The translations under genes and the position numbers were made by a program. Below are positions 8,446-29,086 of a stretch of DNA of 64,000 bases, piece by piece. A model generated the notes under the pieces. It had not been told where the DNA came from. It ran no database searches and saw nothing but the letters and a program-made list of their open reading frames with translations. The stretch is from positions 516 to 64,515 of the forward strand of contig JAWKVM010000006.1 of the NCBI GenBank assembly GCA_041398025.1, given 5' to 3'. Source of the DNA: Alphaproteobacteria bacterium. Lineage in GTDB: Bacteria > Pseudomonadota > Alphaproteobacteria > Geminicoccales > Geminicoccaceae. Position 1 is the first letter of the stretch. Each line of letters opens with the position of its first letter.

Positions 8446-9759
8446 TCAGACGCCCAGCGCGTCGCGCAGGCCGTACCACCAGGACCCGACCATCGAGTAG
8501 GGCACGCGGAACACGCGGCCGCCCGGGAACGGGAACCAGCGGATCTTGGCGAACACGTCGAAACGGCCGAGATCGCCGTCCACGGCCTCGGCCAGGATAC
8601 GGCCGAACAGATGCGAGCCGGTGACGCCGTGGCCGCTATAGCCATGGGCGAAATAGGTGCTGGGGCCGAGACGGCCGAGCTGCGGCACGCGCGAGAAGGA
8701 CAGGGCGAAATTGCCGCTCCAGGCATAGTCCACCTTCACGCCCTTCAATTGCGGGAACACCTTTTCCAGATGCGGCCTGAGCTTGCCCTCGATATCCGCG
8801 GGATCGGTGCCGCCATAGACCGAGCCGCCGCCGAACAGCAGGCGCTTGTCCGCGGAAAGCCGGTAGTAGTCGAGGATGTAGCGCAGATCCTCGACGCAGA
8901 GATCGCTCGGCAACAGCGCGTTCGCGCGCGCCTCGCCGAGAGGCTCGGTCGCGATGATCTGGGTCGAGACCGGCATGACCCGCGGGGTCAGGGTCTTCAC
9001 CACCGAGCCGAGATAGGCGTTGCCGCAGAGGATCAGGGTCCTGCACCGCACCTCGCCGGTCGCGGTCCTGACCACGGGGCGCTCGCTGCCCTCGTCGACC
9101 GAGAGCACCGGCGACATCTCGTGAATCACGCCGCCGTTCCGCTCGAACGCCGCGGCCTCGCCGAGCGCCAGGTTCAGGGGGTGCATATGCCCGCCGGAAT
9201 GGTCGATCATGCCGCCCGCATAGACGTCGCTCGCCACATGGCGGCGCATGGCCTGCTTGTCGATCAGCTCGTGATCGTCCATGCCGTGCTTTCGCCAGAG
9301 CGCCTGCTTGTCTTCCAGCTCCCGCATCTGCTTGGCGTTGCAGGCGGCGAACAGATTGCCGTCCTTCAGATCGCACTGAATGCCGTAGGTGCGGACGCGC
9401 TCGCGGATGATCCGGCCGCCTTCCTGCACCATCCTGCCGATATAGCCGGCGGCCTCGGGTCCATAGCGCTTCTCGATGGTGGCGAGGCTGGCGTTCAGGC
9501 CGTTCACGATCTGGCCGCCATTCCTTCCGGACGCCCCCCAGCCGACCCTGGCGCCTTCGAGGATCATGACCTTGTGGCCCTTCTCGGCGAGGTGCAGCCC
9601 GGCGGAAAGCCCGGAATAGCCGGCACCGACGATGCAGACGTCGATCTCATGGCGCCCTTCGAGGGCGGGGCGGGCAGGGGCGGGGTTGGCGCTCGCGGCG
9701 TAGTAGCTGCCGGGATAGGCGCCGTCGCCGGCATAGGAGCGCATGGCGGCATTCATCAC
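8446..9759 (-). CDS. FAD-dependent oxidoreductase (gamma-glutamylputrescine oxidase PuuB-like)
   Basis: The 437-aa ORF carries the Rossmann FAD motif VCIVGAGYSGLSAGLHLAEKG. Its start overlaps the stop of the upstream GS-like gene. Confidence 0.85.
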   Translation of the reverse strand: MMNAAMRSYAGDGAYPGSYYAASANPAPARPALEGRHEIDVCIVGAGYSGLSAGLHLAEKGHKVMILEGARVGWGASGRNGGQIVNGLNASLATIEKRYGPEAAGYIGRMVQEGGRIIRERVRTYGIQCDLKDGNLFAACNAKQMRELEDKQALWRKHGMDDHELIDKQAMRRHVASDVYAGGMIDHSGGHMHPLNLALGEAAAFERNGGVIHEMSPVLSVDEGSERPVVRTATGEVRCRTLILCGNAYLGSVVKTLTPRVMPVSTQIIATEPLGEARANALLPSDLCVEDLRYILDYYRLSADKRLLFGGGSVYGGTDPADIEGKLRPHLEKVFPQLKGVKVDYAWSGNFALSFSRVPQLGRLGPSTYFAHGYSGHGVTGSHLFGRILAEAVDGDLGRFDVFAKIRWFPFPGGRVFRVPYSMVGSWWYGLRDALGV

Positions 9760-11126
9760 ACGGCCTCCAGATAGCTTTGATATTCGAACTCGGTGACCTC
9801 GGCGGCGAAGCGCTCCATCTCCTGGCGCTTGGCCGCAACGATCATGGATCGAAGCGTCGGGTTCAGGATCTCGTCGACCAGCGCGGTCTCGTCGAAGGCG
9901 AAGGTCGCGGACGCCCAGTCCGGCGGCAGATGGGGCAGGTCGAGACCGTAGGTGTCGCCCGTGACCGGTGCGGGTGGGGCGACCTCGCGCTCGATGCCGA
10001 TCAGCGCCGCCCCCAGGATCGCGGCCAGCACCAGATAGGGATTGGCATCGGCGCCGGCGACCCGGTGCTCGATCCGCCTGGCCGCGGGCGCGCCGCCCGG
10101 AATGCGAAGGGCGGTGGTGCGGTTCTCGTAGCCCCAGGCTTCGGCCACCGGCGCGTGCGTCCCCTTTCTCAGCCGCCGATAGGAGTTTTCGTGGGGCGCG
10201 AACAAGAGGGTGGACGGCCCCATCGCCTGGATCAGCCCGCCGACGGCGTGGCGAAGCTTCTGGCTTCCCCGATCCGAGCCGTCGTCGAAGACGTTCCGTC
10301 CGTTCCGGTCGAGCAGGCTGAAATGCACGTGCAAGCCGTTGCCGGAGCGGTCGCCATAAGGCTTGGCCATGAAGGTCGCGGCCAGACCGTGATGGCGCGC
10401 CACCGCCTTCACCAGGCGCTTGAAGAACAGGGCGTCATCAGCGGCCTTCAGCGGGTCGGCGACATGCAGGAGATTGATCTCGAACTGGCCGCAGCCATTC
10501 TCGGAGATCGCGGCGTCGGCCGGCACGTCCTGGGCTTCGCAGGCGGCGTAGACATCGTCCAGGAAGGGCGAAAACGCATCGAGCTCGTCCGTGGACAGCA
10601 CGCCGTCGAAGGCCATGCGCCGGTCCGAACCTGGAAGCAGCGGCGGCTTCGGCCGTGCCTCGCCCGGGTCCACCAGATAGAATTCGAGCTCGGTCGCGAC
10701 CACCGGGGTCAGGCCTTTTTCGGCAAAGCGTGCGGTGATCGCCGCGAGCGCCCGCCTGGGATCGGCGGCGTAGGGCGTGCCGTCCTCATTGGCCATCCAG
10801 AGCGGCAGCAGCCCGGTCGCACGCTCGCCCAGGACCATGGGCAGCAGGCCGCGCTCGGTCGGCTCGAGAACGCCGTCGGCATCGCCGGTCTCGAACACCT
10901 GGGCATTGCCGAGCACGTCGCAGCCCCAGATATCGACACCGAGAGTCGAGAGCGGCATTCTCAGACCGCCGTTCAGCGCCTTCTCGATCTGGGCGCGCGG
11001 CAGGCGCTTGCCCCGGAGATTGCCGTTGATGTCGGCGACCGCCGCGGTGACATGGCCGATCTCGGGATGCGCCGCGAGCCAGCGCTCCGTCGCTTCCCTC
11101 GCCGTCGGTCGATTCCCTGACACCAC
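9756..11126 (-). CDS. Glutamine synthetase family ligase (gamma-glutamyl-polyamine synthetase PuuA-like)
   Basis: The 456-aa ORF has GS catalytic-domain motifs: ATFMAKPYGDRSGNGLHVHFSL, NSYRRL, ENRTTALRIP, RIEHRVAGADANPYL. Confidence 0.9.
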   Translation of the reverse strand: MVSGNRPTAREATERWLAAHPEIGHVTAAVADINGNLRGKRLPRAQIEKALNGGLRMPLSTLGVDIWGCDVLGNAQVFETGDADGVLEPTERGLLPMVLGERATGLLPLWMANEDGTPYAADPRRALAAITARFAEKGLTPVVATELEFYLVDPGEARPKPPLLPGSDRRMAFDGVLSTDELDAFSPFLDDVYAACEAQDVPADAAISENGCGQFEINLLHVADPLKAADDALFFKRLVKAVARHHGLAATFMAKPYGDRSGNGLHVHFSLLDRNGRNVFDDGSDRGSQKLRHAVGGLIQAMGPSTLLFAPHENSYRRLRKGTHAPVAEAWGYENRTTALRIPGGAPAARRIEHRVAGADANPYLVLAAILGAALIGIEREVAPPAPVTGDTYGLDLPHLPPDWASATFAFDETALVDEILNPTLRSMIVAAKRQEMERFAAEVTEFEYQSYLEAV

Positions 11127-11140
11127 GTCCTCCTTGCATT

Positions 11141-11210
11141 TGTGATAGAGTTAGATATAATGTGATCACATTTTTTGTGTCAACAGGAATTTTTGATTTT
11201 GTGATATCAT
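11141..11210. promoter_or_regulatory. AT-rich divergent promoter region with TGTGAT-type operator candidates
   Basis: The region lies between the GS-like gene (minus) and the GntR gene (plus). It contains tgtgatagag (11141), the perfect 10-bp palindrome TGTGATCACA (11161-11170), and tgtgatatca (11200-11209, core TGATATCA). The palindromes match the general GntR/FadR operator shape (t.GT...AC.a). Confidence 0.45.
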
Positions 11211-11270
11211 TTTTCTGGCCTATGGTTCCGGCCGCATCCCGTTGTCGACAAGCCTGTGCGAGGTGGTTTG

Positions 11271-11978
11271 ATGTCCCCATCCCTGAAGTTGTCCGATCTG
11301 CCGGCATCCGGCGGCGAGACCCTGCAGGAGCAGGTCTACCAGCGCCTCAGGCGGTCGATCATGATCGGCGAGGTGCGCCCGGGCGTGGCGCTCACCATCC
11401 GCGGCCTGGCCGAAGCCCTCGATGTCAGCCCGACGCCGGTGCGCGAAGCGCTCAGGCGTCTGTCCGCCGAACGCGCGCTCGCCGTGCTCGACAATCGCCG
11501 GGTGATGGTGCCGGAGATGACCGTGCAGCGCTTCGAGGAGCTCCTTGCGCTGCGCGTCACCCTCGAAACCCACGCGGCCGAGCGCGCGCTTCCTTATATA
11601 AGCGACAGTCTTGTCAGCATGTTGGTGTCGATCGACGGTTTGATCGACACGGCCCTCGATAATGACGACTACGAGGAGGTGATCGTCACTAACCAGGCCT
11701 TCCACATCCGCCTCTACGAGGCCAACCCCCACCAGCAGGCCCTGCCGATGGTCGAGAGTCTGTGGCTGCAGTTCGGCCCGTTCCTGCGGCTCGCCGCGCT
11801 GAACCTGAAGGAGCATTACCGCTTCGACCGGCACAAGGAGGCGATCGAGGCCCTGCGCCGGCGCGACCCCCTGGCGCTCAGGGTGGCGATCGAGGCGGAT
11901 ATCCGCGACGGCATCGGCCATATCGGCCGCGACGGCCTGCTCCAGGCCTTCGTCGACGCAAAGGGCGCGCTGCGCTGA
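11271..11978 (+). CDS. GntR/FadR-family transcriptional regulator (wHTH + FCD domain)
   Basis: The sequence LQEQVYQRLRRSIMIGEVRPGVALTIRGLAEALDVSPTPVREALRRLSAERAL is a classic GntR wHTH. The C-terminus is helical and FCD-like. I set the start at ATG 11271, which follows gaggtgg. Confidence 0.9.
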   Translation: MSPSLKLSDLPASGGETLQEQVYQRLRRSIMIGEVRPGVALTIRGLAEALDVSPTPVREALRRLSAERALAVLDNRRVMVPEMTVQRFEELLALRVTLETHAAERALPYISDSLVSMLVSIDGLIDTALDNDDYEEVIVTNQAFHIRLYEANPHQQALPMVESLWLQFGPFLRLAALNLKEHYRFDRHKEAIEALRRRDPLALRVAIEADIRDGIGHIGRDGLLQAFVDAKGALR

Positions 11979-24136: not shown

Positions 24137-24745
24137 ATGAAACTCCACTTCGCCATCGCCTCGCCCTATGTGCGCAAGGTGCGCGCGGTCGCGATCGAGC
24201 TTGGACTCGATGGCCGGATCGAGCTTCTCTCACGCGGCATGACGCCGATCTCGCCTGAGGACGAGCTCAACGCCGACAACCCGCTTGGCAAGATTCCCTG
24301 CCTGGTGACCGACCAAGGCGACGCGCTCTACGACTCACGGGTGATCGCTGCCTATCTCGATGATCTCGCCGGCGGCGGGCGCATGATCCCGTCGGGCGGC
24401 GCGGAGCGCTGGACCGCCCTTCGGCGCGAAGCCCTCGCTGATGGCATCCTCGACGCGGCCGTCGGCCGGCGCTACGAAACCTTCCTTCGCCCGAAGGAGC
24501 GTCAGTGGGATCAGTGGATCGACGGCCAGCGCGGCAAGTTCATCCGAGGCCTCGATCAGTTCGAGCGCGAGGCTGCGGACTTCGGCGACACCGTCGACAT
24601 CGGCACGATCGCTGCCGCCTGCGTCTGCGGCTACATGGACTTCCGCTACGCCGACGAGAACTGGCGCGACGGTCGCCCGAACCTTGCCGCCTGGTTCGAA
24701 ACCTTCTCCAAACGCCCTTCGATCGCGACGACGGCTCCCGAGTAG
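24137..24745 (+). CDS. Glutathione S-transferase family protein
   Basis: The 202-aa ORF has an N-terminal thioredoxin-like GST fold (MKLHFAIASPYVRKVRAVAIELGL...PLGKIPCLV...LYDSRVI) and a helical C-domain. Confidence 0.85.
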   Translation: MKLHFAIASPYVRKVRAVAIELGLDGRIELLSRGMTPISPEDELNADNPLGKIPCLVTDQGDALYDSRVIAAYLDDLAGGGRMIPSGGAERWTALRREALADGILDAAVGRRYETFLRPKERQWDQWIDGQRGKFIRGLDQFEREAADFGDTVDIGTIAAACVCGYMDFRYADENWRDGRPNLAAWFETFSKRPSIATTAPE

Positions 24746-24764
24746 GAACCTGGCAAGTCAACGC

Positions 24765-24776
24765 CGACGCGCGTCG
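24765..24776. terminator. 12-bp GC palindrome between convergent GST and NTPase genes
   Basis: CGACGCGCGTCG is a perfect palindrome. It lies 20 nt after the GST stop and 3 nt before the NTPase stop. It may be a bidirectional hairpin, but it is short and lacks a U-tract. Confidence 0.25.
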
Positions 24777-24778
24777 CG

Positions 24779-26392
24779 TCAGGCGGCGAGGTCGATGTCG
24801 AGATCGGTGCCATGAGGATAGACCTCCTTCTTTGAGGTCCACCCCTTGTTGTCCCGGCCGACGCGGTATTCGCCGGCAAAGGCGGGATGGATGCAGAAGG
24901 TATCGTCCTCGCTGAGCGCCATGGAGCCGGGCTGGGTGTATTCGAACTCGCCCTTGTAATAGACCTTGGTCTCGTCGACGACGATACCGAAGATCCCGAG
25001 TTCCTTGAACATCTGCAGGGCTTCGTAGTAGTCGCCGACGATGCCGCGTCCGTAATTGCGGTAGGAGAGCCGAAACTCGGACATGGTGAAGGCATTGGTC
25101 ATGTGCGGCAGCATGCACTCGCAGAGCTCGCCGCCGGACGGATGGATCTGGCGATAGCTGCTGAGCACGCCGGCGCAGATCGAGTTCGCGGCCTGGCGCA
25201 CGCCTTTGACGATGTCGTCCTCCGTGATCCGAAATTGATCGTCGTCGCGCAACAGTGCGTGGCGGACGATCTGATTGAAGATGCCGATGACGTGGCGCGG
25301 CAGAAGCTGGGTGTGCCTGAGAATGAAGGCGAAGCTGTCCTCCTGCTTGCCGAGATTGTTGACCACCTGTTTCGGCATCAGGCGCCGCCAGAACTGGTAG
25401 ACGTCGTCGCGGTCGGGATTGTCCGGGAGGCCATTGTCCCGGCGGATGCGCACGCTGTGCAGCGTGCTCAGATATTTGTCCAGGCGAAGCGCGCTCATCT
25501 TCAAGAGCTCGGGCGCAGTCCACTGCAGCATCAGCATGCTCTCGAAGTCCTTTTCCGGATTTGCCGAGATGGTGGCGGCATAGTGATGGTAGAGCTCGGA
25601 AGGGATGCAGTAGCAGATGTGGATCGGCGAATAGGCGAGGCGCAACTGACTGATCAGATGCAGAAGCCCGGCGGCAGCAGCGTCCATACGAAAATCGTCG
25701 ATCGGGAACTGCTCGACCGAATCGATCAGGATGATCACCTTTTGCCGATGGCTCTCGCAAAAGGCTTCGAGCGCGCCCGTCGCCTCGCCGACGCCGATCT
25801 GATTGATCAGGACATCCTCGAGATCGCCGCTGACGTCGAGGGAAGCTTGGGCATCATGATCGCGCGCCTTGCTCAGGAGCTTGTTCATGATGGTGCGCGC
25901 TGCGGTCTGGCCGTCGATGCCGATACGGTCGAGATAATCCTTCATCGCCAGGAAATAGGGATCGCCGTTGACGTCCGATCGGTAGCGATAGGTCTTGCAC
26001 ACCATGGCGATGGCCGAGGTCACCAGGATGGCTTTCCACAGCCGGCCGACGTTTTCGACGAAGGGGGCATAGTCCTTGTTGCTCTGGTCGAGCACGGCCT
26101 CGATGGTCAGCCCGATGGCACGAAAGGCCTGAGCAGATTCGATGCCGACCTGGTGCTCGTAGATGCCGCTGAAGCAGCGATGATAGAGAAAGGCGGTCTT
26201 GCCGGCTCCCCGCCTGCCGACGATCACCCAGGGGCGCAGATTGTCATTCCTGCGGCTGAGCGTGGTTCTGGGGTCGAAGAGGAGGTCGTGGAGGCGCTTG
26301 GCTTTTCTGGGCTCGCCTATCGGTGTCGAAATCGGTCCCAGAGGCGAGTCAACGGTGAACATATCGTCGATAAGGTCTAAATCATCGAACAT
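24779..26392 (-). CDS. Orphan P-loop NTPase, AAA+/STAND-like, with unassigned C-terminal domain
   Basis: The 537-aa ORF has a GGAG RBS before ATG 26392. Walker A is VIVGRRGAGKTAF. A Walker B-like motif is KVIILIDSVEQF. A sensor-2-like segment reads HTQLLPRHVIGIF. The C-terminal roughly 130 aa (GIFGIVVDETKVYYKGEFEYTQPG...) has no family I recognise. A/T-ending codons are more frequent than in the neighbouring genes. Confidence 0.8.
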   Translation of the reverse strand: MFDDLDLIDDMFTVDSPLGPISTPIGEPRKAKRLHDLLFDPRTTLSRRNDNLRPWVIVGRRGAGKTAFLYHRCFSGIYEHQVGIESAQAFRAIGLTIEAVLDQSNKDYAPFVENVGRLWKAILVTSAIAMVCKTYRYRSDVNGDPYFLAMKDYLDRIGIDGQTAARTIMNKLLSKARDHDAQASLDVSGDLEDVLINQIGVGEATGALEAFCESHRQKVIILIDSVEQFPIDDFRMDAAAAGLLHLISQLRLAYSPIHICYCIPSELYHHYAATISANPEKDFESMLMLQWTAPELLKMSALRLDKYLSTLHSVRIRRDNGLPDNPDRDDVYQFWRRLMPKQVVNNLGKQEDSFAFILRHTQLLPRHVIGIFNQIVRHALLRDDDQFRITEDDIVKGVRQAANSICAGVLSSYRQIHPSGGELCECMLPHMTNAFTMSEFRLSYRNYGRGIVGDYYEALQMFKELGIFGIVVDETKVYYKGEFEYTQPGSMALSEDDTFCIHPAFAGEYRVGRDNKGWTSKKEVYPHGTDLDIDLAA

Positions 26393-26671
26393 ATGACACT
26401 CCGATTTAATTGCCTCATTCTTGGTAAGAAACTTGAGATATCATTTCAAGGAAATAATATTCACTTTAAAATTTAAGAAGTCGCGCTATGAGCTTATCTC
26501 TAATTTATCAGGGGCGGATGAGGTTTGGGCGGATGCAGCAAGACGCTTTCCATTCGCCTTCGTTCGGCGCCGGCATTTTTCGAGCGTTGATGCCGCTGGC
26601 GTGATAGCGGTACGCCCAAGGATGTCCTACCGAGTTCATGGGACGCGGATCAGGACGAGGGGAGCGGGGGC

Positions 26672-29086
26672 ATGAAGTCGCATTATCGGGTTGTGGTCAT
26701 CGGCGGCGGCGTGGTCGGGGCCTCGGTGCTTTATCACCTCGCCAAGTTCGGCTGGACCGATGTCGCGCTGATCGAGCGCTCCGTCCTGACGGCGGGCTCG
26801 TCCTGGCATGCGGCCGGCGGCGTGCATGCGCTGAATGCCGACCCCAACATGGCGGCATTGCAGGCTTACACCATCGATCTGCTGTCGGAGATTCAGGAGG
26901 AATCGGGCCAGGATATCGGCCTCCACATGACCGGCGGCATCACCGTTGCCTCGGCACCGGCGCGCTGGGAATGGCTGCAGTCCGCCTATCGCATCTTCCA
27001 GACCATCGGCATCGAGGACTGCCATCTGATGACGCCCGACGAGATCCAGGCGAAATGCCCGATCATGGACGTCACCGGCGTCATCGGTGGTCTTTGGGCG
27101 GATCGCGAGGGCTATATCGACACCAATGGCGTGGTCCACGCCTATGCGCGCGCTGCTCGGAAGTATGGCGCCGAGGTGATCGAGCACAACAAGGTCGAAG
27201 CGCTGACCCAGTGCACCGATGGGTCTTGGGACGTCGTCACCGAACAGGGCACGGTGCGCGCCGAGCATGTGGTCAACGCGGGCGGGCTTTGGGCGAAGCA
27301 GGTCGGGCGCATGGTCGGTCTCGACCTGCCGGTCTCGCCGCTGGAGCACCACTATCTCGTCACCGAGACCATCCCCGAGGTCCAGGCGATGGACTTTGAA
27401 GTGCCGATGATGGTCGACCTCGAGGGCTTTTCGTACTTGCGCCAGGAAGGGCAGGGCGTGCTGCTCGGCATCTACGAGGTCACGCACAAGCACTGGAACA
27501 TGGAGGGTGCACCCTGGGACTACGGCTTCGAGCTGATCCAGGAGGACATCGACCGCATCGAGGACGAGCTTTCGCTCTGCTATGAGCGCTACCCTTGCCT
27601 GCAGACCGCCGGTATCAAGCGCTGGGTCAACGGCGCCTTCACCTTTTCGCCCGACGGCAATCCGCTGGTCGGGCCGGTGCCCGGCATGCGCGGCTACTGG
27701 CTGGCCTGCGGCGTCATGGCGGGCTTCCTGCAGGGCGGCGGCGTCGGCAAGTCGCTCGCCGAATGGATGATCCACGGCGAGGCTGAGGCCGATACCTGGC
27801 CGATGGACATCGCGCGCTACGGACCGTTCGTCTCGAATCGCGAGTATATCAAGCAGACCACCGGGCAGTTCTACTCGCGCCGCTTCGTCATGACCTATCC
27901 GAACGAGCAGCTTCCGGCAGGCAGGCCGCTGAAGAAGGCCCCGGCGTACGACGCGATGAACGACGCAGGTGCGATCTGGGGGTGCAGCTGGGGGCTCGAG
28001 ATCCCACTGGTGTTCGCGCCGAAGGGCTTTGAAGAGACGCCGACGCTCAAACGCTCGAACGCCTTTCCGATCGTTGCCGAGGAATGCCGCGCGGTGCGTG
28101 AGGATGTCGGCCTGCTCGACACCTCGGGATTCTCACGCTTCGAGGTGAGTGGCGAACGTGCCGCGTCATATTTGGATAAGCTGACGGCGGGCCGTCTCCC
28201 TGCAGCGGGTCGCTGCCGCCTGGCGCCGATGTTGGGCCTCGACGGCCGGCTCAAGGGTGATCTCACCGTCTTCAACTGGGGTGACGGTCGTTGGTGGATC
28301 ATGGGCTCCTACTATCTCCGCCAGTGGCACATGCGCTGGTTCCAGGGCCATGACGATGGCGGCGTCGACATCAGAGATATCTCGGATGCCACTGTCGGCT
28401 TCTCGCTTTCCGGTCCCAGATCCCGCGACGTGCTCGCAGCCCTGACCCATCAAGACGTGAGCGATCAGGCCCTGCCGTTCATGGGCTGCACGGTCCTCGA
28501 TGTCGGCCTGATCCGTGCCAAGGTCGGGCGCCTCTCGGTCGCGGGCGAACTTGGCTACGAGATCAATTGCGGCGCTGCCGAACACATCACGCTGCGTGAG
28601 ATCCTGCTCGAGGCCGGTGCCGCCCATGGCATTCGCGAATACGGCTATTACGCGCTGAATTCGCTTCGCCTGGAAAAGAGCTTCGGCATCTGGAGCAAGG
28701 AATTCACGCAAGGCTACACGCCCGGCATGACCGGCATGGACCGCTGGATCGCCTGGGACAAGGGTGACTTCATCGGACGGGAGGCCGCGCTCGCCGAGCG
28801 GAAGGACGGCACGGCAAAGCAAAAGCTGGTGACGCTGGAGGTGGATGCCGCCGACGCCGACGGTTCCGGCTTCGAGCCGGTCTGGAAGGACGGCAAACGC
28901 GTCGGCTTCATCACCTCGGGCGGCTACGGCCACAGTGTGCAGAAGAGCCTGGCTATGGCGCTGCTCGACTCGGCCCACGCCGAGCCCGGGACCGAGCTCA
29001 CGACGCACATCGTCGGCGTCGAGCGCGCGGCGAAGGTCATCGCGCCGAGCCCGCACGATTCGAAGGGAACGCGGATGCGGGCGTAG
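26672..29086 (+). CDS. FAD-dependent dehydrogenase with C-terminal folate-binding aminomethyltransferase (GcvT) domain (dimethylglycine/sarcosine dehydrogenase-like)
   Basis: The 804-aa ORF starts with the FAD motif MKSHYRVVVIGGGVVGASVLYHLAKFGW. The C-terminal half is GcvT-like (DTSGFSRFEVSGERA...GYEINC...GYGHSV). Confidence 0.9.
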   Translation: MKSHYRVVVIGGGVVGASVLYHLAKFGWTDVALIERSVLTAGSSWHAAGGVHALNADPNMAALQAYTIDLLSEIQEESGQDIGLHMTGGITVASAPARWEWLQSAYRIFQTIGIEDCHLMTPDEIQAKCPIMDVTGVIGGLWADREGYIDTNGVVHAYARAARKYGAEVIEHNKVEALTQCTDGSWDVVTEQGTVRAEHVVNAGGLWAKQVGRMVGLDLPVSPLEHHYLVTETIPEVQAMDFEVPMMVDLEGFSYLRQEGQGVLLGIYEVTHKHWNMEGAPWDYGFELIQEDIDRIEDELSLCYERYPCLQTAGIKRWVNGAFTFSPDGNPLVGPVPGMRGYWLACGVMAGFLQGGGVGKSLAEWMIHGEAEADTWPMDIARYGPFVSNREYIKQTTGQFYSRRFVMTYPNEQLPAGRPLKKAPAYDAMNDAGAIWGCSWGLEIPLVFAPKGFEETPTLKRSNAFPIVAEECRAVREDVGLLDTSGFSRFEVSGERAASYLDKLTAGRLPAAGRCRLAPMLGLDGRLKGDLTVFNWGDGRWWIMGSYYLRQWHMRWFQGHDDGGVDIRDISDATVGFSLSGPRSRDVLAALTHQDVSDQALPFMGCTVLDVGLIRAKVGRLSVAGELGYEINCGAAEHITLREILLEAGAAHGIREYGYYALNSLRLEKSFGIWSKEFTQGYTPGMTGMDRWIAWDKGDFIGREAALAERKDGTAKQKLVTLEVDAADADGSGFEPVWKDGKRVGFITSGGYGHSVQKSLAMALLDSAHAEPGTELTTHIVGVERAAKVIAPSPHDSKGTRMRA

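What the first reader, a model, noticed from the sequence alone, without database searches (positions are those of the whole stretch)
24779..26530. Orphan AAA+/STAND-like P-loop NTPase on a lower-GC insert: candidate single-gene defence or abortive-infection module
The 537-aa ORF (24779-26392, minus) has Walker A GRRGAGKT, a Walker-B-like VIILIDSVEQF and a sensor-2-like LLPRHVIGIF. It ends in a roughly 130-aa C-terminal domain (GIFGIVVDETKVYYKGEFEYTQPGSMALSEDDTFCIHPAF...) that I cannot place in any family. It has no partner genes: it is convergent with a GST gene and back-to-back with a DMGDH-like catabolic gene. Its 5' flank (26393-26530) is the most AT-rich stretch in the window (...tttaattgcctcattcttggtaagaaacttgagatatcatttcaaggaaataatattcactttaaaatttaag...). 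The gene itself uses many A/T-ending codons (gat gat tta gac ctt atc ...), unlike its neighbours. Together this looks like a horizontally acquired single-gene cassette with an AT-rich, possibly xenogeneically silenced promoter. Stand-alone NTPases with an unassigned C-terminal domain are a recurring architecture among anti-phage systems. I cannot assign this one to a named system.
Basis: partly seen in the sequence, partly recalled or inferred. Interest (0 to 1): 0.7.

Follow-up and report, generated by a model that had tools for sequence, protein, structure and literature searches.

The report
Solo Sll1717-family ATPase, likely phage defence
The gene is real and belongs to a named but barely studied family of switch-like ATPases, one distant member of which is proven to protect E. 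coli from phages; here it is not a recent import but an old resident of a chromosomal slot that related bacteria keep, swap or lose.

Summary
The 537-aa ORF (24779-26392, minus) and its motifs are real. It is not unassignable. It matches NCBIfam NF047389 "P-loop ATPase, Sll1717 family" end to end (164 bits, cutoff 75), C-terminal region included. The AlphaFold model (pLDDT 86) is an ORC/Cdc6-clade AAA+ ATPase; the nearest structures are BrxC and archaeal Orc/Cdc6. It carries a 130-aa helical insert, a lid, a winged-helix-like domain and a conserved tail (CxHPxF). DS-41, a single-gene anti-phage protein validated in E. coli, passes the same family threshold but is only a remote relative (hhalign 83%, 13% identity, different C-terminus). 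Other relatives carry TIR, SARP, kinase or weak cyclase-like fusions. The "recent low-GC insert" reading fails for this allele. GC3 is 0.81 (neighbours 0.79-0.84). dN/dS (0.12) and dS (0.39) equal the flanking genes'. The gene is syntenic next to the GST across Geminicoccaceae. There are no repeats, tRNA or integrase. The AT-rich flank holds a conserved promoter-like element. Across genomes, however, the slot is dynamic: one empty site, and two very divergent, AT-rich alleles (62% and 49% identity). Verdict: a new member of a known family, plausibly a single-protein defence switch with unknown output. Moderate interest.

The parts
24779..26392 (-). CDS of the 537-aa Sll1717-family P-loop/AAA+ ATPase (the end coordinate includes the stop codon)
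   Evidence: ORF. NF047389 at 164 bits over residues 32-505. GC3 of 0.80 marks this as the coding frame; overlapping ORFs have 0.40 and 0.60. dN/dS 0.116 against L072.
26330..26347 (-). Conserved N-terminal peptide motif (residues 16-21, SPLGPI; family consensus PFGPI; P17 and P20 invariant, G19 nearly invariant)
   Evidence: Alignment A2 of 54 family members. DS-41 has an NPFEHY motif at a similar position.
26195..26218 (-). Walker A / P-loop GRRGAGKT (residues 59-66)
   Evidence: Sequence. G59, R60, G62, G64 and K65 are invariant.
25751..26137 (-). All-helical insert of about 130 aa between strand 2 and the Walker B strand (residues 86-214), at the position of the ORC/Cdc6 insert
   Evidence: AF2 secondary structure: H86-100, H112-134, H145-157, H165-179, H188-199, H201-214. 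Its position relative to known ORC/Cdc6 hallmarks is inferred from 10.1101/2025.10.09.681413.
25706..25738 (-). Walker B strand VIILIDSVEQF (residues 219-229)
   Evidence: D224 is invariant. Strand E219-223 in the model.
25295..25318 (-). Invariant RHTQ-LPR motif (residues 359-366). R366 starts lid helix 365-381 and is a candidate sensor-2 arginine.
   Evidence: R359, H360, T361, Q362, L364, P365 and R366 are invariant. It aligns with the invariant SPRE of the DS-41 family.
24947..25135 (-). Winged-helix-like domain (residues 420-482; order H-beta-H-H-beta-beta)
   Evidence: Secondary-structure order (domain model pLDDT 88). The Foldseek list is dominated by PadR, MarR, NadQ, ScpB and MukE, but none is significant (best E 0.25).
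24782..24946 (-). C-terminal tail (residues 483-537) with the conserved CxHPxF motif (residues 500-505, 24878-24895)
   Evidence: H502 and F505 are invariant; C500 and P503 are nearly invariant. No structural match.
26393..26530 (-). AT-rich 5' flank. It holds a conserved promoter-like element (-35 TTGAAA at 26444-26449, a 17-nt spacer, -10-like TACCAA at 26421-26426) and the Shine-Dalgarno GGAG at 26399-26402.
   Evidence: Lowest GC in the window. TTG(A/C)AA-N17-TA(G/C)CAA and GGAG are conserved in window, L001, L004, L005 and L007. The tool's stricter sigma-70 scan did not call it on this strand.
24137..24745 (+). Convergent GST gene, the constant neighbour of the slot. It is context only and not proposed as a functional partner.
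   Evidence: Pfam GST_N_2, GST_N_3 and GST_C_2. It lies next to the ATPase in all loci that carry the class-A, L003 or L071 alleles. GST orthologues exist without the ATPase.
26672..29086 (+). Divergent DMGDH-like gene, the other edge of the slot (context only)
   Evidence: Pfam DAO + FAO_M + GCV_T + GCV_T_C. It follows the GST directly in the empty site of L006.

Best explanation
The gene encodes a full-length member of the Sll1717 family (NCBIfam NF047389). It is a stand-alone AAA+ ATPase of the ORC/Cdc6 (STAND-like) clade.

Its parts, in order, are:
- a short conserved N-terminal peptide;
- a P-loop core interrupted by a 130-aa helical insert;
- a lid carrying an invariant RHTQ-LPR motif;
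- a winged-helix-like domain;
- a conserved C-terminal tail.

The most likely role (inferred, not shown) is a single-protein anti-phage or anti-mobile-element switch. In the resting state it would bind nucleotide as a monomer. An invader-derived cue, nucleic acid or protein, would be read by the winged-helix/tail and/or the helical insert and would drive ATP-dependent assembly. The assembled form would then block phage replication or trigger growth arrest. The output step is unknown, because the protein has no recognisable nuclease, TIR or protease domain.

In this genome the gene is an old chromosomal resident. It is expressed from a conserved AT-rich promoter region. It sits in a GST|DMGDH slot that related Geminicoccaceae keep, lose or refill with divergent alleles.
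For: Family and fold (shown):
- NF047389 scores 164 bits against a cutoff of 75, over profile positions 11-450 of 454. All 54 aligned relatives match it.
- The AF2 model has pLDDT 86 and pTM 0.87.
- The Foldseek top hits are BrxC, then archaeal ORC2/Cdc6 (E 2e-4 to 2.5e-3).

Link to immunity:
- DS-41 (WP_033812887.1) is a validated single-gene system (PMC13092281).
- Its 99%-identical cluster representative P0211 passes the NF047389 threshold with 97.6 bits.
- Its close homologues are named 'Sll1717 family' by NCBI.
- hhalign of the two sub-families gives 83% probability, E 9e-6, over 353 columns.
- 34 of 54 relatives weakly hit the DS-41 model, and 26 of 54 hit the PADLOC candidate PDC-M28C.
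- Three of the ten fused or extended family members scanned carry a TIR domain.

Behaviour typical of accessory or defence genes:
- Distant members are solo genes in unrelated contexts.
- The slot is empty in L006.
- The slot holds a 62% allele with GC3 0.58 in L003, and a roughly 49% allele with GC3 0.42 in L071. The neighbours there are 71-91% identical with GC3 0.73-0.78.

The gene is functional: dN/dS is 0.116 and the motifs are invariant.
Against: - No member of this sub-family has been tested. DS-41 is only 13% identical, and its match to NF047389 stops at profile position 353 of 454, so its C-terminus is not shared.
- There is no significant PADLOC hit.
- There are no defence genes within about 8 kb in the window.
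- The sampled contexts are not defence islands.
- The window's allele evolves exactly like its metabolic neighbours and is syntenic across a bacterial family. That is unusual for defence genes.
- Other fusions in the family are typical of ordinary signal transduction: SARP DNA-binding domains, a Ser/Thr kinase and a weak cyclase match.
- No effector domain can be named.
- The winged-helix assignment rests on topology, without a significant structural match.
Confidence: 0.5

Rival explanations
1. A host signalling or regulatory ATPase, not an immune one. This would be a MalT/AfsR-style nucleotide switch whose winged-helix domain binds host DNA. It might regulate the divergently transcribed DMGDH/MTTB methylamine-catabolism genes or the adjacent GST.
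For: - It is transcribed divergently from DMGDH, with a shared and conserved intergenic region.
- It is syntenic, with neighbour-like dN/dS and dS.
- Family members are fused to Trans_reg_C + BTAD (SARP) modules, a Ser/Thr kinase and, weakly, a cyclase.
- It has a winged-helix-like C-terminal domain.
Against: - In L002/L008 and L009 the gene is not next to DMGDH.
- L006 keeps GST and DMGDH but lacks the ATPase.
- Distant members sit next to unrelated genes, with no recurring target.
- AT-rich replacement alleles in the same slot are hard to reconcile with a dedicated regulator.
- GST orthologues occur widely without it.
Confidence: 0.2
2. One reading: a recently acquired single-gene cassette on a low-GC insert, kept quiet by xenogeneic silencing of its AT-rich promoter.
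For: - The gene has the lowest GC in the window, and its 5' flank is the window's AT extreme.
- Its amino-acid composition is AT-skewed relative to its neighbours.
- The alleles in L071 and L003 really are compositionally foreign.
Against: For this allele:
- GC3 is 0.81, the same as the neighbours.
- Across 7 of 8 loci its GC3 tracks host GC3 from about 0.6 to 0.87.
- dS is 0.39, against 0.37-0.47 for the flanks.
- There are no direct or inverted repeats at the boundaries, no tRNA, and no integrase or transposase among the annotated flanking genes.
- The AT-rich flank is conserved among relatives and contains a promoter-like element.
Acquisition, if it happened, predates the divergence of these Geminicoccaceae.
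Confidence: 0.07
3. A selfish or mobile-element-derived ATPase (a prophage or plasmid remnant, or an addiction-type gene) that persists without benefit to the host.
For: - A weak match to a phage protein family of unknown function: phrog_13260, E 7e-5, residues 33-393.
- Sporadic distribution in unrelated contexts.
- Allele turnover at the slot.
Against: - No relative was found in 2.9 million viral contigs, and viral structural matches are only generic AAA+.
- No mobile-element genes flank it in the window.
- Purifying selection is as strong as on the neighbours.
Confidence: 0.1
4. A housekeeping DNA-transaction factor, i.e. an ORC/Cdc6- or DnaA/DnaC-like loader or initiator accessory.
For: ORC/Cdc6-type fold with a following winged-helix-like domain. 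Syntenic and under purifying selection.
Against: - Absent from L006 and from the more distant relative L010.
- Patchy distribution across bacteria.
- Replaced by 49-62% alleles in sister genomes.
- TIR fusions in the family.
- No replication or repair genes nearby.
Confidence: 0.03

Closest known systems
NCBIfam NF047389, 'P-loop ATPase, Sll1717 family' (named after Synechocystis Sll1717; no function assigned)
   Same: Full-length match above the curated cutoff (164 bits against 75; profile positions 11-450 of 454). The match covers the N-terminal motif region, Walker A/B, the lid motif and the C-terminal domain. All 54 relatives match as well.
   Different: Nothing structural differs; this is the family it belongs to. 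The family has no experimental characterisation that I could find: there were 0 papers for 'Sll1717'.
DS-41 ('AAA2', WP_033812887.1; NCBIfam NF053860), a single-gene anti-phage system validated in E. coli (DefensePredictor, PMC13092281)
   Same: - Both are solo proteins of about 500 aa.
- Both pass the NF047389 threshold.
- They share the same layout: an N-terminal Pro-Phe-type motif, Walker A near residue 55-60, a long helical insert, Walker B, and a lid with (S/L)PR.
- hhalign gives 83% probability and E 9e-6 over residues 30-437.
   Different: - Only 13% identity.
- The window protein scores 22 bits against the 370-bit equivalog cutoff.
- DS-41 matches only positions 1-353 of the 454-position Sll1717 model.
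- The profile-profile alignment ends at residue 437 of the window protein, short of the helices, wing and CxHPxF tail that follow.
- The mechanism of DS-41 is itself unknown.
BrxC / DUF499-type ORC/Cdc6 AAA+ ATPases of BREX and related systems
   Same: Best structural neighbours: 9zll_B and 9zdx_C, E 2e-4. Same order of AAA+ core, helical bundle, then a winged helix (description in 10.1101/2025.10.09.681413).
   Different: - TM-scores are low (0.30).
- BrxC is 1,200-1,300 aa and works inside a multi-gene system with PglZ, BrxX and BrxB.
- No such genes are present here, and there is no PADLOC BREX hit.
Archaeal Orc1/Cdc6 replication initiators
   Same: AAA+ plus lid plus C-terminal winged-helix layout. 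Foldseek E 1e-3 to 2.5e-3, target-normalised TM 0.40-0.44 for 1w5s_B, 1w5t_A and 2qby_A. A weak Pfam ORC-CDC6-like hit.
   Different: - About 11-13% identity.
- The Pfam hit is below threshold (17.7 against 27 bits).
- Much larger helical insert and an extra C-terminal tail.
- Dispensable and sporadic in bacteria.
STAND-type immune NTPases (Avs/AVAST, NACHT, bNACHT) and STAND regulators (AfsR/SARP, MalT)
   Same: The logic of a nucleotide-dependent switch ATPase followed by a winged helix. The same repertoire of fused domains in relatives: TIR, SARP, kinase and a weak cyclase match. DS-41 was flagged as a remote homologue of an Avs1B-labelled cluster (supplement file 7).
   Different: - No NACHT, NB-ARC or AAA_16 hit for this protein.
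- No C-terminal TPR, WD40 or LRR sensor array.
- No N-terminal effector domain.
- No Avs hit in PADLOC for this protein.

Membership tests
NCBIfam NF047389 (P-loop ATPase, Sll1717 family) | Whole-protein score above the curated cutoff (75 bits) | tested here: met
   164.2 bits, E 5.6e-48.
NCBIfam NF047389 (P-loop ATPase, Sll1717 family) | Match spans the whole model, including the C-terminal part | tested here: met
   Residues 32-505 against profile positions 11-450 of 454.
NCBIfam NF047389 (P-loop ATPase, Sll1717 family) | Intact P-loop NTPase motifs (Walker A lysine, Walker B aspartate) | tested here: met
   GRRGAGKT with K65, and D224; both invariant in 54 sequences.
DS-41 anti-phage protein (NCBIfam NF053860, equivalog) | Score above the equivalog cutoff (370 bits) | tested here: not met
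   22.4 bits. True DS-41 relatives score 372-414 bits.
DS-41 anti-phage protein (NCBIfam NF053860, equivalog) | Homology of the ATPase and lid module | tested here: met
   Both proteins pass the NF047389 threshold. hhalign gives 83% probability, E 9e-6, over 353 columns. This homology is remote (13% identity).
DS-41 anti-phage protein (NCBIfam NF053860, equivalog) | Same C-terminal domain | tested here: not met
   DS-41 covers only profile positions 1-353 of 454 of the Sll1717 model. The profile-profile alignment stops at residue 437 of the window protein.
DS-41 anti-phage protein (NCBIfam NF053860, equivalog) | Protection against phage when expressed alone | not testable with these tools
   Needs plaque assays. 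This has been shown only for E. coli DS-41 (PMC13092281).
ORC/Cdc6-clade AAA+ ATPases (Pfam PF24389 ORC-CDC6-like; BrxC; Orc1/Cdc6) | Pfam gathering threshold (27 bits) | tested here: not met
   17.7 bits, over residues 36-78 only. Some relatives carry a precomputed PF24389 hit.
ORC/Cdc6-clade AAA+ ATPases (Pfam PF24389 ORC-CDC6-like; BrxC; Orc1/Cdc6) | Structural similarity of the core, and the order AAA+ core, helical lid, then winged helix | tested here: inconclusive
   The top Foldseek hits are BrxC and Orc2/Cdc6 (E 2e-4 to 2.5e-3), but TM-scores are only 0.30-0.44. The secondary-structure order fits. The winged-helix domain alone gives no significant hit.
STAND NTPases (NACHT / NB-ARC / Avs) | NACHT, NB-ARC or AAA_16-type NTPase profile hit | tested here: not met
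   No such Pfam hit at E <= 1. No Avs hit in PADLOC for this protein.
STAND NTPases (NACHT / NB-ARC / Avs) | Tripartite architecture: an N-terminal effector domain and a C-terminal repeat sensor | tested here: not met
   The protein has only about 50 residues before the P-loop and no repeat array. Effector-type fusions (TIR) occur in relatives only.
Known defence systems in PADLOC-DB v2.0.0 | Significant match to any system component model | tested here: not met
   The best hits are PDC-M28C at E 0.02 and mad8 at E 0.033. Relatives reach 9e-7 for the unvalidated candidate PDC-M28C.
Recently acquired genomic islet | Synonymous-site composition deviates from the host | tested here: not met
   GC3 is 0.81, against 0.79-0.84 in the neighbours. 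The gene tracks host GC3 in 7 of 8 loci.
Recently acquired genomic islet | Boundary marks: direct repeats, a tRNA, an integrase or a transposase | tested here: not met
   Only chance-level short repeats. No tRNA in 64 kb. The neighbours are metabolic or transport genes.
Recently acquired genomic islet | Presence/absence polymorphism among relatives | tested here: met
   L006 is an empty site (GST stop, about 180 bp, DMGDH start). L003 and L071 carry divergent AT-rich alleles. This shows turnover at the slot, not that this particular allele arrived recently.

The most novel reading that the evidence does not exclude
The archetypal Sll1717-type proteins (742 clusters at E <= 1e-30) may be a widespread single-protein immune sensor that has not been tested and is distinct from DS-41. 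The winged-helix domain plus the CxHPxF tail and/or the 130-aa helical insert would recognise invader DNA or protein. The ORC/Cdc6-like ATPase itself, with no enzymatic effector domain, would deliver the block, for example by assembling on and occluding phage replication origins. The GST|DMGDH site in Geminicoccaceae would then be a chromosomal defence slot where alleles are exchanged by recombination through conserved flanks.
Probability: 0.3. Interest if true: 0.55.

Novelty: new member of a known kind. Interest (0 to 1): 0.36.

Why it matters
If the defence reading holds, a large annotated but functionally blank family (NF047389) would gain a role. That would extend it from the one validated outlier, DS-41, to the archetypal form with a different C-terminus. 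It would also give an example of an immune protein with no recognisable effector domain.

The locus shows that a defence-type gene can look entirely native by GC3, dS and dN/dS in one genome, while comparison across genomes reveals a slot with loss and allele replacement. Scans that rely on composition to find defence genes outside islands would miss this.

If the defence reading fails, the gene is simply an uncharacterised regulatory ATPase and is of routine interest.

Tried and rejected
- Pfam, PDB-sequence and PADLOC scans of the protein gave nothing significant.
- A literature search for 'Sll1717' found no papers, and the term is absent from the DefensePredictor supplements.
- hhalign against the single, truncated DS-41 sequence was inconclusive (30% probability). 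I resolved this by building a DS-41 family profile.
- Foldseek of the C-terminal domain alone found no significant match (best E 0.25). The winged-helix call is therefore based on topology only.
- A homology search with the C-terminal domain profile, meant to find other architectures, returned only three fragments of the same gene and was uninformative.
- The viral-contig scan and the BFVD fold search found no specific phage relatives. There is only a weak hit to phrog_13260.
- I looked for target-site duplications, inverted repeats and tRNA at the gene boundaries and found none.
- I considered a GST-ATPase two-gene system and rejected it. The genes are convergent, GST orthologues are widespread without the ATPase, and the 58% allele in L070 has no GST within its 4.3-kb contig.
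- I considered that the low GC1 and GC2 are fixed by the protein family. That is rejected as the sole cause, because family members range from FYMINK 0.19 to 0.35.
- The sigma-70 consensus scan did not call a promoter on the gene's strand. The promoter-like element I report rests on conservation in the alignment, not on that scan.
Full report
**1. What is in the sequence**

The ORF at 24779-26392 on the minus strand encodes 537 aa and is present exactly as described.
- Walker A GRRGAGKT is residues 59-66.
- The Walker-B-like strand VIILIDSVEQF is residues 219-229.
- LLPRHVIGIF is part of an RHTQ-LPR motif at residues 359-366.

In a 54-sequence family alignment, G59, R60, G62, G64, K65, D224, R359, H360, T361, Q362, L364, P365 and R366 are invariant. 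So are G466, G469, Y478, H502 and F505 in the C-terminal part, and P17 and P20 near the N-terminus.

Pfam confirms the neighbours. A GST (24137-24745, +) is convergent with the gene. A DAO + FAO_M + GCV_T protein, DMGDH-like (26672-29086, +), is divergent from it. The surrounding genes are PhoD, a GDSL lipase, a MacB/FtsX permease, an RraA-like protein, MTTB, another DAO protein and DctP/DctM. None is defence-related.

Two long ORFs overlap the gene, one on the opposite strand and one in another frame. They are high-GC artefacts: their GC3 is 0.60 and 0.40, against 0.80 for the real frame.

**2. Composition**

Parts of the composition claim hold.
- The 5' flank contains the lowest-GC 100-bp stretch of the 64-kb window: 0.29 at 26381-26480, with the next lowest 0.33 near 11131.
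- The gene has the lowest overall GC of the long ORFs, 0.59-0.60 against a window mean of 0.647.

The claim about A/T-ending codons is wrong.
- GC3 is 0.81, against 0.79-0.84 in the six flanking genes.
- Only the first 30 codons are A/T-ending (GC3 0.57). The remaining codons have GC3 0.83.
- The deficit lies in codon positions 1 and 2 (0.60 and 0.38, against 0.65-0.70 and 0.46-0.51 in the neighbours). It reflects an AT-skewed amino-acid composition: FYMINK 0.26 against 0.15-0.20, and GARP 0.26 against 0.31-0.37.

Family members elsewhere range from FYMINK 0.19 to 0.35, so the protein family does not fix this composition. Native synonymous sites combined with AT-skewed replacement sites is the pattern expected of an old acquisition whose fast-evolving sites have equilibrated. 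That last step is inference.

**3. Family assignment**

- Pfam gives only a sub-threshold ORC-CDC6-like hit.
- PADLOC and the PDB sequences give nothing significant.
- NCBIfam places the protein firmly in NF047389, "P-loop ATPase, Sll1717 family". The score is 164 bits against a cutoff of 75, over residues 32-505 and profile positions 11-450 of 454.

An exhaustive profile search finds 742 clusters (at 50% identity) with E <= 1e-30, and 3,922 with E <= 1e-3. Most are solo proteins of 520-560 aa. I found no paper on Sll1717.

**4. Structure**

The AlphaFold2 model is confident, with pLDDT 86 and pTM 0.87.

Its best matches among solved structures are the BREX ATPase BrxC (E 2e-4) and archaeal Orc2/Cdc6 (E 1e-3 to 2.5e-3), followed by generic AAA+ proteins. 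TM-scores are modest, 0.30-0.44.

The order of elements is:
- an N-terminal peptide;
- P-loop strand 56-59;
- strand 80-84;
- an all-helical insert of about 130 residues (86-214);
- Walker B strand 219-223;
- a further core strand (257-264);
- a helical lid (293-412);
- H420-430, beta 434-436, H437-448, H455-465, beta 468-474 and beta 478-482, which is the canonical winged-helix order;
- a tail of about 55 residues bearing CxHPxF.

Modelled alone, the C-terminal 126 residues are again confident, with pLDDT 88. They have no significant structural match (best E 0.25). The weak hits are mostly winged-helix DNA-binding proteins: PadR, MarR, NadQ, ScpB, MukE, TubR, Sso10a and F93. I therefore call the domain winged-helix-like on topology and do not treat this as proven.

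An AAA+ core followed by a helical bundle and a wHTH is the module described for BrxC, DUF499 and related anti-invader ATPases (10.1101/2025.10.09.681413).

**5. Link to a tested protein**

A weak local hit to NCBIfam NF053860 (DS41_1_antiphage) led me to DS-41, also called "AAA2" (WP_033812887.1). It is a single-gene system of 502 aa, validated against BASEL phages in E. coli (PMC13092281).

- P0211, which is 99% identical to DS-41, scores 414 bits on its own equivalog model. It also scores 97.6 bits on NF047389, above that cutoff, but only over profile positions 1-353 of 454.
- NCBI names close DS-41 homologues "P-loop ATPase, Sll1717 family".
- A profile-profile comparison of my alignment with a 25-member DS-41 alignment gives 83% probability and E 9e-6 over 353 columns. 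It covers residues 30-437 of the window protein against 31-439 of DS-41, at 13% identity.

The two proteins therefore share the N-terminus, the ATPase core, the insert and the lid as remote homologues. They belong to the same NCBIfam family. The window protein is not a DS-41 equivalog (22 bits against 370), and the remainder of its C-terminal domain and the CxHPxF tail are not shared with DS-41.

Among relatives of the window protein, 34 of 54 weakly hit the DS-41 model, and 26 of 54 hit the unvalidated PADLOC candidate PDC-M28C.

**6. Fusions**

I scanned ten family members that have extensions.
- Three carry TIR_2, two at the N-terminus and one at the C-terminus.
- Two carry Trans_reg_C + BTAD (SARP-type), one of them with an added Ser/Thr kinase.
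- One has a weak nucleotide-cyclase match.
- Two have an extra AAA_16 module.
- The other two (P0114, P0187) showed only ATPase-type matches.

This is the fusion repertoire of STAND-like switch NTPases. It is consistent with both immune and ordinary signalling roles.

**7. Genomic behaviour**

The nearest relatives are MAGs of Geminicoccaceae, which are Alphaproteobacteria.

I anchored a scan of one genome per species on the GST gene. Combined with contig look-ups for three close ATPase homologues, it gave nine loci with a GST orthologue at 71% identity or more (eight distinct contigs, since L008 is the same contig as L002 and L024 the same as L001). Eight of these loci carry the ATPase convergent with the GST. 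That includes L009 and L002, where the outer flanks differ. L006 is a clean empty site, with about 180 bp between the GST stop and the DMGDH start. The flanking genes of L006 are closest to those of L005, which has the gene, so loss is the most economical reading.

The evidence for long residence is as follows.
- Across hosts whose GC3 ranges from about 0.6 to 0.87, the ATPase's GC3 tracks its neighbours' in 7 of 8 loci.
- Against the closest relative (L072, 91% amino-acid identity), dN/dS is 0.116 and dS is 0.39. The GST gives 0.111 and 0.47, and the DMGDH gives 0.130 and 0.37. This indicates co-divergence with the neighbours under equally strong purifying selection.
- No repeats, tRNA, integrase or transposase mark the boundaries.

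The homologues are syntenic and the codon statistics do not differ from the genome. There is, however, no known housekeeping role.

The slot is nevertheless not static.
- In L003 the ATPase is only 61-64% identical to all other copies, while its neighbours are 77-91% identical. Its GC3 is 0.58, against 0.73-0.78.
- In L071 the copy is about 49% identical with GC3 0.42, while GST, RraA, MacB, DMGDH, PhoD and GDSL are 71-84% identical. The four of those neighbours measured for GC3 give 0.74-0.78. That contig carries frameshifts, probably from assembly error.
- Both divergent alleles keep RHTQLLPR and CIHPAF, and L003 also keeps GRRGAGKT.

The slot has therefore seen one loss and two replacements by compositionally foreign alleles. 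This kind of turnover is common at defence loci, which is established general knowledge. It raises my estimate for an immune role, even though the window's own allele looks native.

Distant family members sit as solo genes in unrelated housekeeping contexts, with no recurring partner.

**8. The AT-rich flank**

I aligned the upstream regions of the window, L001, L003, L004, L005 and L007. In all of these except L003, the following are conserved:
- TTG(A/C)AA, then 17 nt, then TA(G/C)CAA. In the window these are at 26444-26449 and 26421-26426.
- An AT-rich block upstream of that.
- A GGAG Shine-Dalgarno sequence 6 nt before the ATG.

The generic sigma-70 scan does not call this element on the minus strand. 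It finds a plus-strand candidate at 26433-26460 that could serve the DMGDH gene.

The simplest reading is a functional, conserved promoter region shared by two divergent genes. Xenogeneic silencing cannot be tested here.

**9. Mechanism and likelihoods**

Shown: family membership, an AAA+ fold of ORC/Cdc6 type, intact nucleotide-binding motifs, purifying selection, the solo arrangement, and turnover at the slot.

Inferred:
- The protein is a nucleotide-dependent switch that assembles on a cue.
- The cue is read by the winged-helix domain and tail, or by the helical insert.
- The outcome is interference with an invader.

The output step is open, because there is no recognisable effector domain.

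My estimates are about 0.5 for a defence or anti-mobile-element role, 0.2 for a host regulatory switch, about 0.1 for a selfish or mobile-element remnant, under 0.1 for the recent-cassette-with-silencing version, and about 0.03 for a housekeeping role.

**10. Novelty**

This is a new member of a known, named family whose only tested representative is a distant one. The finding is real and moderately interesting. It is not categorically new, and the compositional argument that drew attention to it is mostly incorrect for this allele.

Noticed in passing
L071:3833-5415 and L003:10001-11611, the slot equivalent to window 24779-26392: Two sister genomes carry highly divergent, AT-rich alleles of the same gene in the same GST|DMGDH slot. 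The alleles are 49% and 62% identical with GC3 0.42 and 0.58, where neighbouring genes have GC3 0.73-0.78. This suggests repeated in-situ replacement. The breakpoints were not mapped.
   Followed up: partly
L006:10607-10787: A clean empty site. The GST stop is followed after about 180 bp by the DMGDH start, with no remnant of the ATPase detected by tblastn.
   Followed up: partly
L001:1971-3932: A 653-aa TIR_2 + FGE-sulfatase fusion protein lies about 6 kb from the ATPase in a related genome. The window has DctP/DctM transporter genes at the corresponding place.
   Followed up: no
L071:7125-8204: A DDE_3 transposase is inserted between RraA and MacB in one relative. The same contig has frameshifted DMGDH and ATPase genes, probably from long-read assembly errors.
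   Followed up: no
L063:11643-14205; L064:11623-11994: Some distant Sll1717-family genes are followed by uncharacterised ORFs. One is a 707-aa protein followed by a Vsr endonuclease. Another is an overlapping 123-aa ORF with an HTH_3 gene upstream. These could be lineage-specific partners.
   Followed up: no
window:26433-26460 (+): A promoter-like TTGAGA-16-TAATAT on the plus strand lies inside the shared AT-rich intergenic region. It could serve the divergent DMGDH/MTTB genes.
   Followed up: no
window:11131-11230: The second-lowest-GC stretch of the window (0.33). It lies between two divergent ORFs, 9756-11150 (-) and 11205-11978 (+), and is probably another divergent promoter region.
   Followed up: no
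window:24887-26380 (+) and 24540-25760 (-): Long ORFs of 497 aa and 406 aa overlap the ATPase gene on the opposite strand or in another frame. They have GC3 0.60 and 0.40, against 0.80 for the real frame, so they are high-GC artefacts and not genes.
   Followed up: yes
window:26330-26347 (-), residues 16-21: A short N-terminal motif (consensus PFGPI; P17 and P20 invariant) is conserved across the family, and DS-41 has an NPF motif at a similar position. Its role is unknown. It is the only conserved element upstream of the P-loop and a candidate interaction or output peptide.
   Followed up: partly
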